Sequence record: OR844650
Direction: 5' to 3' (one strand)
Origin: Escherichia phage ECO103 4-12-1
Length of the DNA stretch: 64,000 nucleotides
How positions within the stretch are numbered: the stretch's first letter is position 1; each line of letters starts with the position of its first letter. Positions 20,865-21,572 of this stretch are shown one piece after another. The position numbers and the translations under genes are program-made. A model generated the notes under the pieces. It was not told where the DNA came from and searched no databases. It saw only the letters and a program-made list of their open reading frames with translations.

Positions 20865-21191
20865 CTATAGCAAGTCGTTATCCATATCATCCCACACAGA
20901 ATCAATGATGTTTGCTGCTATCTTTTTAGACATTTTAAACCACTCCGTATTTGGTTGTCTAGTTGCATTCATTTGTTTAAGCCTTTTATGTATCTCTTTT
21001 TCAGCTAAACGTGCGTCTTCAAAGTGAACTTCATGATAAACTTCAAAATCACGAAACGGGGTAGCTGTCTGATACGTTCTCAAACGCTCTGTCATTTCAG
21101 ATTTAGAAGTGAAACCAATCTTAACATAGTCAGGCCATGCAGAGTTTATTATAACATAACATATCTGTGACATAGATTCAATCTCCATCAT
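20865..21191 (-). CDS. T5orf172/MUG113-like (GIY-YIG superfamily) domain protein
   Basis: CYVIIN...YVKIGFT...RLRTYQ...HEVHFED...EWFK pattern; GATAAATA late-type motif 21203-21210. Confidence 0.5.
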   Translation of the reverse strand: MMEIESMSQICYVIINSAWPDYVKIGFTSKSEMTERLRTYQTATPFRDFEVYHEVHFEDARLAEKEIHKRLKQMNATRQPNTEWFKMSKKIAANIIDSVWDDMDNDLL

Positions 21192-21212
21192 TAATATGGA
21201 GATATTTATCTA

Positions 21213-21572
21213 TCAACTAATAGTGAATTTTAAACCAATATCAATTAAACGTTGAAAAGGATTATGTGGCTGAAATTCCGATGGTTCTTGTGCTATGTTT
21301 AGTACAGGAGCATCAGAATGCAGCACCGACATACGTTCTCTATAATGATCTATGTATTCTTCATACAACATATCTTCAGTATGTGTATTAAGTATATCTT
21401 CTATGAAAGAATCTAAACTATAATCCAATCTATCATCATTATAATACAATGTTTCAGTGGCTTCATCATATCCAACTAACGTACCATAAGGAACATTTAT
21501 TTCTATATTTGAGTACTGACTCTTTAAGTACTCTTCTTTGTTAAATTTGTATACAGTTAACATCCGTGTCAA
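21213..21572 (-). CDS. hypothetical protein
   Basis: 119-aa ORF with AAGGAG SD. Confidence 0.45.
   Translation of the reverse strand: MTRMLTVYKFNKEEYLKSQYSNIEINVPYGTLVGYDEATETLYYNDDRLDYSLDSFIEDILNTHTEDMLYEEYIDHYRERMSVLHSDAPVLNIAQEPSEFQPHNPFQRLIDIGLKFTIS

What the first reader, a model, noticed from the sequence alone, without database searches (positions are those of the whole stretch)
20865..21572. Small T5orf172/MUG113-like protein and an unknown ORF in an accessory island between the tail-fibre and capsid genes
Seen: a 108-aa protein with the T5orf172-type pattern (YVII...KIGFT...R..TYQ...EWF) carrying a GATAAATA late-type motif, followed by a 119-aa unknown ORF and the repeat-array endonuclease. 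The island is bounded by the strong capsid-gene terminator. Established: T5orf172 is a GIY-YIG-superfamily domain often found in selfish or defence-associated genes. Inference: an accessory island, possibly a domesticated nuclease or DNA-binding regulator.
Basis: partly seen in the sequence, partly recalled or inferred. Interest (0 to 1): 0.45.

Follow-up and report, generated by a model that had tools for sequence, protein, structure and literature searches.

The report
Conserved mini-nuclease with late translation switch
A 102-residue stand-alone nuclease domain and its small neighbour are conserved genes of the RaK2-like giant phages, not an accessory island. The nuclease appears to be translated only late, through a promoter-plus-hairpin switch of the kind known from phage T4. 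This makes it a tidy but fairly ordinary find.

Summary
The window is an Asteriusvirus jumbo coliphage (100% identical to phage IA-38). Both ORFs are real. The first is a T5orf172/MUG113 (GIY-YIG superfamily) domain above Pfam cut-offs, with a confident GIY-YIG-like model whose best structural matches are SLX1 nucleases.

The "accessory island" reading fails for the two small genes. They sit in fixed order (capsid, variable endonuclease slot, unknown ORF, T5orf172, tail fibre) across Asteriusvirus, Mimasvirus, Eneladusvirus and 7t3/Hallingskeid-type phages. The T5orf172 protein is 68-78% identical across genera, against 27-40% for the unknown ORF and 46-60% for the tail fibre. Its synonymous sites are saturated and its catalytic-type residues are invariant. 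Only the adjacent 307-aa zinc-finger endonuclease is mobile: absent in PBECO4, a different variant in 121Q, a remnant in GAP32.

New here: the GATAAATA motif belongs to a genome-wide ATAAATA late-promoter set. In every lineage it directly abuts a hairpin that sequesters the T5orf172 Shine-Dalgarno sequence, with compensatory stem changes. This is the T4 e/soc/49/I-TevI design.

Best reading: a domesticated, catalytically intact stand-alone nuclease made only late. Its DNA target is unknown. It is a new member of known kinds and of modest interest.

The parts
20865..21173 (-). T5orf172 (GIY-YIG superfamily) stand-alone nuclease-domain gene, 102 aa from ATG 21173.
21181..21203 (-). RNA hairpin. 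The 5' arm AUCUCCAU is at 21203-21196, the loop at 21195-21189, and the 3' arm AUGGAGAU at 21188-21181. The 3' arm contains the Shine-Dalgarno GGAG of the T5orf172 gene. Predicted -9.0 kcal/mol.
   Evidence: A hairpin is present in all lineages with different stem sequences. Cognate arm pairs average -9.7 kcal/mol against -5.05 for chimeras, with 0 of 20000 permutations as good. Among 15 ATAAATA-associated gene starts it is the only stable (-9 kcal/mol) hairpin that abuts the motif and holds the SD; a weaker (-6.2) similar fold occurs at 30985.
21203..21210 (-). Late-promoter-like motif GATAAATA (clade consensus ATAAATA/CTAAATA). It lies 2 nt after the stop codon of the unknown ORF, and its last A is the first base of the hairpin.
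   Evidence: The CBB paper gives the late consensus ATAAATA plus a gp55-like sigma factor.
21213..21563 (-). Conserved unknown ORF, 116 aa from ATG 21563 (TTG 21572 gives 119 aa). PHROG 15724. Predicted N-terminal SH3-like barrel followed by helices.
21587..22510 (-). Free-standing homing-endonuclease-like gene, 307 aa. It has zinc-finger repeats (DUF4379/DUF723 hits here; relatives in the same slot also hit CapR) and a divergent C-terminal T5orf172-like domain. This is the only truly variable gene in the region.
   Evidence: PHROG 681, 7.6e-63. Absent in PBECO4. A 365-aa variant in 121Q. A remnant in GAP32. Insertion boundaries.
22539..22567 (-). Sigma-70-like promoter TTGACA-17-(TG)AATAAT carried by the endonuclease cassette. 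It is a predicted source of non-late read-through transcripts.
   Evidence: It is part of the sequence that replaces 44 nt of PBECO4.
22581..22600 (-). Intrinsic terminator of the major capsid gene; upstream boundary of the unit.
   Evidence: Annotated as a terminator in G17.
20856..20862 (-). Separate ATAAATA late-promoter-like motif for the tail-fibre gene, just after the T5orf172 stop codon.
   Evidence: Its homologue Porf_260 is listed in the CBB late-promoter table.

Best explanation
The 102-aa gene encodes a bare T5orf172-type GIY-YIG nuclease domain. It most likely descends from a homing-endonuclease nuclease module and was fixed (domesticated) in the ancestor of most RaK2-like jumbo phages. 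It is now kept as a single-copy, vertically inherited gene at the head of the late tail-fibre transcription unit.

Its synthesis appears to be restricted to late infection by a T4-type switch. Transcripts that read through from upstream promoters contain a hairpin that buries the Shine-Dalgarno sequence. The ATAAATA late promoter abuts that hairpin. With T4 late-promoter geometry, transcription would start at about A21197, inside the 5' arm. The late mRNA therefore cannot form the hairpin and is translated.

Shown or strongly supported: conservation, purifying selection, the fold, the invariant catalytic-type residues, the promoter motif set, and the covarying hairpin.

Inferred: that the protein is an active DNA endonuclease; that it needs a partner for targeting because it has no DNA-binding domain; and that it acts on DNA late in infection. 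The most likely target is replicated or branched phage DNA, in an SLX1-like structure-specific manner, working beside the phage's endonuclease VII.
For: Identity and fold:
- Pfam T5orf172 and MUG113 hits are above their cut-offs.
- The AF2 model has pLDDT 88.7 with a beta-beta-alpha-beta-alpha-beta-alpha order.
- Foldseek top hits are again SLX1 (probability 0.95), with UPF0213 and the UvrC GIY-YIG domain also listed.
- The CBB authors' HHpred for the orthologue also returned SLX1, at 3.3e-05.
- T5orf172 domains are experimentally active nucleases that depend on the conserved Glu, as shown for ICP1 Odn E180A (PMC8263062).
- Invariant Y6, K18-I-G20, R30, Y34, E77 and N88 across 32 orthologues.

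Core-gene status:
- The same gene order is found in 12 fetched loci from at least four genera and in 14 IMG/VR jumbo contigs.
- Identity to the window protein is 68-89%, against 27-72% for the unknown ORF and 46-74% for the tail fibre.
- pN is 0.08-0.23 with pS saturated. dN/dS is 0.026 against 121Q.
- There is a single copy in the window.

Switch:
- ATAAATA is a promoter-like set: 17 of 19 copies are non-coding and 15 of 19 lie upstream of genes.
- The literature gives ATAAATA as the late consensus and reports a gp55-like sigma factor in CBB and GAP32.
- The motif abuts an SD-sequestering hairpin in every lineage, and the stems covary.
- Such hairpins are rare at other gene starts: 2 of 46 reach -9 kcal/mol or lower, and one of those is a terminator. 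Among 15 ATAAATA-associated starts no other has a comparably stable motif-abutting hairpin holding the SD; one weaker (-6.2 kcal/mol) similar fold occurs at 30985.
- Upstream non-late promoters are predicted: a sigma-70-like one in the window and Porf_258 in CBB.
- T4 genes e, soc, 49, I-TevI, mobE and segB use the same design (PMC3014915).

Not a virion protein:
- Not detected by mass spectrometry in phAPEC6 or CBB virions.
Against: - There is no biochemical, transcript-mapping or genetic data for any member of the family.
- The correspondence of invariant residues to I-TevI Y6/Y17/R27/H31/E75/N90 rests on order and spacing, not on a computed alignment. hhalign failed.
- The phage already encodes endonuclease VII, so a debranching role would be redundant.
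- RaK2 lacks the gene altogether, so it is dispensable in at least one lineage.
- In HEG-less PBECO4 the upstream promoter of the unknown ORF looks late-type as well (CTAAATA). There the hairpin would not separate early from late transcripts.
- The stop codon of the unknown ORF lies 0-10 nt from the hairpin in all lineages. Translational coupling could therefore explain the hairpin as well as, or in addition to, the promoter switch.
Confidence: 0.6

Rival explanations
1. The hairpin serves translational coupling rather than, or as well as, a late-promoter switch. A ribosome terminating at the stop codon of the unknown ORF melts the 5' arm and frees the Shine-Dalgarno sequence. The SH3-like unknown protein and the nuclease domain are then made in fixed proportion and act as a two-subunit enzyme, effectively a split endonuclease with a targeting subunit and a catalytic subunit.
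For: - The stop codon of the unknown ORF lies 2 nt before the motif in the window, and lies inside or next to it in every other lineage.
- The gene order (unknown ORF, then nuclease) mirrors the N-terminal DNA-binding / C-terminal T5orf172 order of the nearest outgroup endonucleases.
- The two genes are adjacent in every genome that has the nuclease.
- The nuclease has no DNA-binding module.
Against: - The ATAAATA motif is itself conserved in different reading-frame positions relative to the stop codon, and is a promoter-like element genome-wide.
- RaK2 keeps the unknown ORF without the nuclease.
- The two proteins evolve at very different rates: 27-40% against 68-78% identity.
- No complex prediction could be run.
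Confidence: 0.25
2. It is a selfish free-standing homing endonuclease, or the decaying remnant of one, with no benefit to the phage.
For: - The T5orf172 domain is typical of phage homing endonucleases (PMC10448857).
- The nearest relatives outside the clade are mostly 150-210 aa zinc-finger plus T5orf172 proteins.
- T4 homing endonucleases use the late-promoter-plus-hairpin control.
- It lies next to an active endonuclease insertion slot.
Against: - It has no DNA-binding domain.
- It occupies a fixed position in all genera examined except Alcyoneusvirus, with no presence/absence polymorphism among the fetched genomes.
- Identity ranks track those of the capsid protein, which indicates vertical descent.
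- Purifying selection is strong.
- The genuine endonuclease in the neighbouring slot is lost, replaced, or decays to a 77-aa remnant.
Confidence: 0.07
3. It is a late-acting conflict nuclease that degrades host, co-infecting-phage or satellite DNA. The analogues are ICP1 Odn or T4 endonuclease II, rather than an enzyme that processes the phage's own DNA.
For: - T5orf172 nucleases are used in phage-satellite conflict (PMC8263062; PMC10448857).
- There are domain-level PADLOC hits to PDC-S57 (5.5e-17) and PD-Lambda-1.
Against: - Conflict genes are usually variable and fast-evolving. After the capsid protein, this gene is the most conserved of the five neighbouring genes compared.
- It has no targeting domain.
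- The PADLOC matches cover only the shared nuclease domain: profile positions 5-93 of 212.
Confidence: 0.12
4. It is a catalytically silent protein that uses the GIY-YIG fold for binding only, as a regulator or assembly factor of the adjacent tail-fibre or head genes.
For: - It sits between the head and tail-fibre genes, at the start of the late tail-fibre transcript.
- InterPro historically labels T5orf172 as DNA-binding.
- Domesticated endonucleases such as CapR act as repressors.
Against: - All catalytic-type residues are invariant over saturated synonymous divergence.
- CapR-type regulators keep the DNA-binding domain and lose the nuclease. This protein is the reverse case.
- It was not found in virions.
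Confidence: 0.08

Closest known systems
T5orf172-family phage nucleases (Pfam PF10544): ICP1 Odn/Gp88 and the ICP1 T5orf172 homing endonucleases
   Same: The same Pfam domain, above threshold. The catalytic Arg and Glu are conserved, and the Glu is shown to be essential in Odn.
   Different: Those proteins join the nuclease to a DNA-binding domain (RepA_N, CapR-type zinc fingers) and vary between isolates. This one is the nuclease domain alone, in a fixed position and highly conserved. Unlike Odn, it also keeps a Tyr (Y34) in the first helix.
I-TevI of phage T4 (GIY-YIG intron endonuclease) and its expression control
   Same: A catalytic domain of about 95 aa, with the same order and spacing of key residues (my own knowledge of I-TevI, not a computed alignment). 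Translation is blocked on early transcripts by an SD-sequestering hairpin and released on transcripts from a late promoter at the 5' arm (PMC3014915).
   Different: No linker or DNA-binding domain, not inside an intron, and not mobile. hhalign could not align the two sequences.
T4 genes e, soc and 49 (endonuclease VII): late-promoter/RBS-hairpin switch
   Same: The same regulatory logic, and the same placement of the late promoter at the 5' strand of the inhibitory helix.
   Different: A different phage clade and a different gene. The motif is the relaxed ATAAATA/CTAAATA. No transcript mapping exists here.
SLX1 / HIGLE structure-specific endonucleases (GIY-YIG/URI)
Stand-alone GIY-YIG proteins (UPF0213/YhbQ type, e.g. 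1ywl, 1zg2) and T4 endonuclease II (DenA)
   Same: Small proteins made of little more than the GIY-YIG domain. 1ywl and 1zg2 appear among the fold hits. The comparison with DenA is from my own knowledge.
   Different: Different sequence families. DenA is an early host-DNA-degrading enzyme, whereas this gene carries late-expression signals.

Membership tests
T5orf172 / GIY-YIG superfamily (Pfam PF10544, PF13455) | Profile-HMM score above the curated gathering threshold | tested here: met
   T5orf172 50.3 bits (cut-off 20) and MUG113 49 bits (cut-off 22.3), covering residues 10-97.
T5orf172 / GIY-YIG superfamily (Pfam PF10544, PF13455) | GIY-YIG alpha/beta fold | tested here: met
T5orf172 / GIY-YIG superfamily (Pfam PF10544, PF13455) | Conserved catalytic residues: Tyr in strand 1, Arg and Tyr/His in helix 1, metal-binding Glu, and Asn | tested here: met
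   Y6, R30, Y34, E77 and N88 are invariant in 32 orthologues. The second-motif Tyr is Lys (KIG), as is typical of T5orf172. The mapping to I-TevI and Odn residues is by order and spacing, not by a residue-level superposition.
T5orf172 / GIY-YIG superfamily (Pfam PF10544, PF13455) | Metal-dependent endonuclease activity | not testable with these tools
Activity is shown only for other members such as Odn.
Free-standing homing endonuclease gene | Nuclease domain joined to a sequence-specific DNA-binding domain | tested here: not met
   102 aa, and the domain fills residues 10-97. The nearest outgroup proteins do carry N-terminal zinc fingers.
Free-standing homing endonuclease gene | Sporadic presence or absence, or decay, among close relatives | tested here: not met
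   Present, intact and syntenic in all fetched genomes except RaK2. dN/dS is about 0.03-0.1. By contrast, the neighbouring 307-aa gene meets this criterion.
T4-type late-promoter / RBS-sequestering hairpin switch (e, soc, 49, I-TevI) | Late-promoter motif located at the 5' strand of the inhibitory helix | tested here: met
   The last base of (G/C/A)TAAATA is 0-2 nt from the first paired base in all lineages. The motif is a promoter-like set in the window and in CBB and GAP32.
T4-type late-promoter / RBS-sequestering hairpin switch (e, soc, 49, I-TevI) | Shine-Dalgarno sequence and/or start codon paired in the helix, with the structure conserved through compensatory change | tested here: met
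   GGAG, GGGG or GGGA lies in the 3' arm in every lineage. Cognate arm pairs fold at -9.7 against -5.05 kcal/mol for chimeras, with 0 of 20000 permutations as good.
T4-type late-promoter / RBS-sequestering hairpin switch (e, soc, 49, I-TevI) | Read-through transcripts from upstream earlier promoters | tested here: inconclusive
   A sigma-70-like promoter at 22567-22539 has no terminator before the gene. CBB Porf_258 is of the replication-gene type. In PBECO4, however, the upstream motif is late-like. There are no transcript data.
T4-type late-promoter / RBS-sequestering hairpin switch (e, soc, 49, I-TevI) | Mapped late 5' end inside the helix, and translation only from that transcript | not testable with these tools
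   Requires 5'-end mapping and translation assays.
SLX1-type structure-specific endonuclease | GIY-YIG domain followed by a RING/zinc-finger domain, acting with an SLX4 partner | tested here: not met
   Only the GIY-YIG part aligns: 85 residues at 14% identity. The protein ends at residue 102 with no Cys/His-rich region.
Anti-phage defence candidates PDC-S57 / PD-Lambda-1 | Full-length match to the defence protein, in a bacterial defence context | tested here: not met
   Only the shared nuclease domain matches: profile positions 5-93 of 212 and 359-438 of 496. The gene lies in a lytic jumbo-phage genome.

The most novel reading that the evidence does not exclude
The unknown SH3-like ORF and the bare T5orf172 domain are the two halves of a split, translationally coupled, late-acting endonuclease. 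It was co-opted from a homing endonuclease into a core function of RaK2-like jumbo phages. One candidate function is an SLX1/SLX4-like structure-specific nuclease that processes the very large replicating genome. Another is a driver of recombination in the adjacent, rapidly diverging tail-fibre module.
Probability: 0.15. Interest if true: 0.6.

Novelty: new member of a known kind. Interest (0 to 1): 0.3.

Why it matters
The locus shows two fates of the same nuclease family side by side. One zinc-finger T5orf172 endonuclease comes and goes as a selfish element. Next to it, a bare T5orf172 domain has been kept almost unchanged across several genera of giant phages, which points to a real function in the phage life cycle.

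It also extends the T4 promoter-in-hairpin translation switch to the RaK2-like jumbo phages, with comparative (covariation) support. That gives a concrete and easily tested regulatory prediction.

The practical gains are corrected start codons and a corrected "core, not accessory" label for two genes annotated as hypothetical in about 60 genomes. It does not open a new class of system.

Tried and rejected
- PDB sequence search with the family profile found no nuclease hit at E <= 10.
- hhalign of the family profile against I-TevI (sequence recalled from memory) gave no meaningful alignment. The residue correspondence therefore rests on order and spacing only.
- BLASTP of the small protein against the 307-aa neighbour found no similarity (E = 8). 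It is not a recent duplicate of that gene's nuclease domain.
- RaK2 ORF097, which occupies the nuclease's position, has no relation by hhalign, Pfam, PHROG, PADLOC or NCBIfam.
- NCBIfam gave no hits for any of the three genes.
- The MAFFT alignment of the leader regions was not in structural register. A chimeric-arm energy permutation test replaced it.
- An Rfam search of 18000-24500 found only sub-threshold chance hits.
- A repeat search of 20700-22700 found nothing meaningful.
- A search for the CBB-type TGAAACG...TATAAT promoter found one site elsewhere in the window and none near this locus.
- The afdb50 fold library was unavailable.
- No transcriptome paper for this phage group was found.
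- I considered the hairpin as a terminator and rejected it, because no U-tract follows it.
- I considered a virion-protein role and rejected it on mass-spectrometry data for phAPEC6 and CBB, although small proteins can be missed.
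Full report
**Source of the window.** The region 18200-24000 is 100% identical to Escherichia phage IA-38. It is 97-98.5% identical to the Asteriusvirus jumbo coliphages G17, slurp01, 121Q and phAPEC6. All genes around the finding lie on the minus strand:
- DNA polymerase, 15210-18215
- a small hypothetical gene
- tail-fibre assembly protein, 18688-19245
- tail fibre, 19214-20824
- the small T5orf172 gene
- the unknown ORF
- a 307-aa endonuclease, 21587-22510
- the gp23-like major capsid protein, 22644-23819, then scaffold and protease

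**Observation check.** Both ORFs exist at the stated coordinates.
- The 108-aa ORF matches Pfam T5orf172 (E=3.7e-13, 50.3 bits against a cut-off of 20) and MUG113 (9.3e-13). It also matches PHROG 15085 at 1.5e-58.
- The 119-aa ORF has no Pfam match but matches PHROG 15724 at 8.7e-58.
- GATAAATA lies at 21210-21203 on the minus strand.
- The capsid terminator is at 22581-22600.
- The likely true starts are ATG 21173 (102 aa) and ATG 21563 (116 aa). Both have good Shine-Dalgarno sequences, they are the starts annotated in G17 and 121Q, and no upstream in-frame start is conserved in other genera.

**Accessory or core?** I fetched annotated loci from G17, PBECO4, 121Q, JNE01, EJP2, 7t3, Hallingskeid, GAP32, XbC2, CBB, BF, pEa_SNUABM_44 and RaK2.
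- In all of them except RaK2 the order is: capsid terminator, optional endonuclease, unknown ORF, T5orf172 gene, tail fibre, assembly protein (no separate assembly-protein CDS is annotated in Hallingskeid), small ORF, DNA polymerase.
- Fourteen IMG/VR jumbo contigs carry an intact 100-103 aa orthologue of the nuclease gene; their gene order was not examined.
- In the phage collection, 61 records carry a T5orf172 orthologue at 60% identity or more. Sixty-nine carry the unknown ORF, and 11 of those are Klebsiella phages, RaK2 and K64-1 among them.
- RaK2 keeps the unknown ORF (ORF096). In the nuclease's place it has an unrelated 244-aa orphan.
- The T5orf172 protein is 89% identical to the window copy in JNE01, 75-78% in EJP2, 7t3 and Hallingskeid, and 68-69% in Mimasvirus and Eneladusvirus. 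For the same genomes the capsid protein is 89-98%, the tail fibre 46-74%, and the unknown ORF 27-72%. The identity ranks follow those of the capsid protein, which is what vertical descent predicts.
- Non-synonymous differences are 0.08-0.23 per site while synonymous sites are saturated. Against 121Q, dN/dS is 0.026.
- An exhaustive HMMER scan of 1.84 billion representative proteins finds only three representatives at E < 1e-25. The orthologous family is therefore confined to this phage clade.

The two small genes are conserved genes of the group.

**The mobile neighbour.** The accessory element is the 307-aa gene.
- It hits DUF4379 and DUF723 zinc-finger models; relatives in the same slot (RaK2 ORF095, 7t3_0458, 121Q_604) also hit the CapR model. 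It has a weak C-terminal T5orf172/MUG113 match and matches PHROG 681 "endonuclease" at 7.6e-63.
- It is absent from PBECO4. There, 44 nt lie between the capsid terminator and the ATG of the unknown ORF. In the window those 44 nt are replaced by about 1 kb that carries its own sigma-70-like promoter.
- 121Q has a 365-aa variant with a different 5' part.
- RaK2 and 7t3 have related genes in the same slot.
- GAP32 retains only a 77-aa C-terminal remnant.
- Synonymous divergence between the window and 121Q is much higher in the unknown ORF (0.58) and the T5orf172 gene (0.31) than in the capsid gene (0.09) or the tail-fibre gene (0.04). This fits exchange tracts around an endonuclease slot, as described for T5orf172 endonucleases in ICP1-like phages (PMC10448857).
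- The small nuclease shows no detectable pairwise similarity to the neighbour's C-terminal domain.

**The small protein.**
- AlphaFold2 on 32 orthologues gives pLDDT 88.7 with strand-strand-helix-strand-helix-strand-helix topology.
- Foldseek again puts SLX1 first (probability 0.95), and lists UPF0213 and the UvrC GIY-YIG domain, but no E-value is below 0.1.
- The CBB authors' HHpred for the orthologue CBB_259 also returned SLX1.
- Y6, K18, G20, R30, Y34, H47, E58, E60, E77 and N88 are invariant. Their order and spacing match I-TevI Y6, Y17, R27, H31, E75 and N90. This comparison is from my knowledge of I-TevI; a computed profile alignment failed.
- The conserved Glu is essential for cleavage in the T5orf172 nuclease Odn (PMC8263062).
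- The domain fills residues 10-97, so there is no DNA-binding module.
- The nearest relatives outside the clade, at about 40% identity, are mostly 150-210 aa proteins with an N-terminal CxxC...CxxC region. A few are bare domains of about 103 aa.

The simplest history is that a homing-endonuclease nuclease module lost its DNA-binding part and was fixed in this phage lineage.

**Regulation.**
- As an octamer, GATAAATA is not enriched: 5 found against 6.6 expected.
- The heptamer ATAAATA occurs 19 times. Seventeen copies lie in the 7.6% of the window that is non-coding. Fifteen lie within 80 nt upstream of a same-strand gene, including the capsid, scaffold, protease and tail-fibre genes.
- The CBB paper derived the same late consensus (ATAAATA, with CTAAATA and GTAAATA variants) for CBB and GAP32, and found a gp55-like late sigma factor (PMC5259590).
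- In every lineage the motif sits at or just after the stop codon of the unknown ORF. It is followed immediately by a hairpin whose 3' arm holds the Shine-Dalgarno sequence of the nuclease gene.
- The stems differ between lineages: AUCUCCAU/AUGGAGAU in the window, UCCCAGAGUAC/GUACUAUGGGA in EJP2, CUUCC/GGAGG in 7t3, CUCCC/GGGGG in L015, CCCC/GGGG in Mimasvirus and Eneladusvirus, and AACUCAC-CUU/AGG-GAGAGUU in L017.
- Chimeras that join the 5' half of one lineage to the 3' half of another fold at -5.05 kcal/mol on average, against -9.7 for the native pairs. None of 20000 permutations did as well as the native pairing.
- Only 2 of 46 other gene starts in the window have a leader of -9 kcal/mol or lower, and one of those is a terminator.
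- Among the 15 ATAAATA-associated gene starts, no other has a comparably stable hairpin that abuts the motif and contains the Shine-Dalgarno sequence; one weaker fold (-6.2 kcal/mol) at 30985 has a similar layout.
- With T4 late-promoter geometry (TATAAATA at -13 to -6; my knowledge), transcription would start at about A21197. That leaves only two bases of the 8-nt 5' arm.
- This is the arrangement documented for T4 e, soc, 49 and I-TevI, and for the free-standing endonuclease genes mobE and segB (PMC3014915).
- Upstream, non-late transcription is plausible. The endonuclease cassette has a sigma-70-like promoter with no intervening terminator. In CBB a "replication-type" promoter, Porf_258, lies in front of the unknown ORF.
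- One caveat: a ribosome terminating at the stop codon of the unknown ORF would also melt the 5' arm. Translational coupling is therefore a real rival or complement to the promoter switch.

**The unknown ORF.**
- Homologues are found only within this clade, even with a profile search.
- The AF2 model has pLDDT 79.8. It shows an N-terminal six-stranded SH3-like barrel, two helices, a variable low-confidence linker and a conserved C-terminal motif.

**Function of the nuclease.**
- It is not found in the virions of phAPEC6 or CBB.
- Iyer et al. proposed that T5orf172/Uri nucleases act in recombination, or as alternative junction resolvases, in jumbo phages (PMC7824862). The SLX1 fold matches are compatible with that proposal.
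- The window, however, already encodes an endonuclease VII homologue at 33978-34469 (PHROG 423, 3.5e-32; see also CBB_248). Any debranching role would therefore be auxiliary.
- PADLOC matches (PDC-S57, PD-Lambda-1) are at domain level only.

I commit to a catalytically active, partner-dependent DNA endonuclease that is made only late. Its most likely substrate is replicated or branched phage DNA. The regulatory part and the "domesticated core gene" part are well supported. The substrate is inference.

**Verdict.** The domain assignment is already in public annotations ("T5orf172 domain protein", "GIY-YIG nuclease family protein"). New here are its status as a core gene of the clade, the corrected start codons, and the conserved, covarying promoter-hairpin switch. 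It is a new member of known kinds and of modest interest.

Noticed in passing
window 32961-33932 (-): A second free-standing endonuclease gene. It has the same DUF723/DUF4379 zinc-finger modules but an HNH/intron-encoded-type nuclease (PHROG 559 at 1e-66, PHROG 9084). It lies next to the endonuclease VII homologue.
   Followed up: partly
window 33978-34469 (+) and 34488-37693 (-): An endonuclease VII homologue (PHROG 423, 3.5e-32; no Pfam hit at E <= 0.001) lies beside Rad50-like (zinc hook) and Mre11-like (Metallophos) genes.
   Followed up: partly
whole window: The ATAAATA heptamer behaves as a late-promoter set. Of 19 copies, 17 are non-coding and 15 lie within 80 nt upstream of a same-strand gene, including the capsid, scaffold, protease, portal-side and tail-fibre genes.
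   Followed up: yes
window 11286-11885 and 11900-12589 (+): Two adjacent paralogous genes, both containing a QQRAV(L/I)(V/I) motif. The 3' end of the first pairs with the Shine-Dalgarno sequence of the second (CUCUUCCUGUU...AAUAGGAGGA, -10.5 kcal/mol). This may be translational coupling. Two GATAAATA motifs lie upstream, at 11168 and 11232.
   Followed up: no
L005:4256-4489 (GAP32_251): A 77-aa ORF that is the C-terminal remnant of the PHROG 681 endonuclease (9.2e-11), in the same slot downstream of the capsid gene. It is a decayed copy of the mobile gene.
   Followed up: yes
window 20865-21563 compared with L003 (121Q): Synonymous divergence from 121Q is 0.31 in the T5orf172 gene and 0.58 in the unknown ORF. 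It is 0.04-0.09 in the flanking capsid, tail-fibre and small hypothetical genes. This is a local mosaic tract next to the endonuclease slot.
   Followed up: partly
L004:5404-6138 (RaK2 ORF097): A 244-aa orphan protein occupies the position of the T5orf172 gene in RaK2. It has no Pfam, PHROG, PADLOC or NCBIfam match. RaK2 also lacks the tail-fibre assembly gene, and its tail fibre ends in a gp53-like C-terminal domain.
   Followed up: partly
window 30985-30946 (-): A weaker instance of an ATAAATA motif followed by a fold that pairs the Shine-Dalgarno region (-6.2 kcal/mol). It lies upstream of a 735-aa protein of unassigned function encoded next to the portal gene.
   Followed up: no
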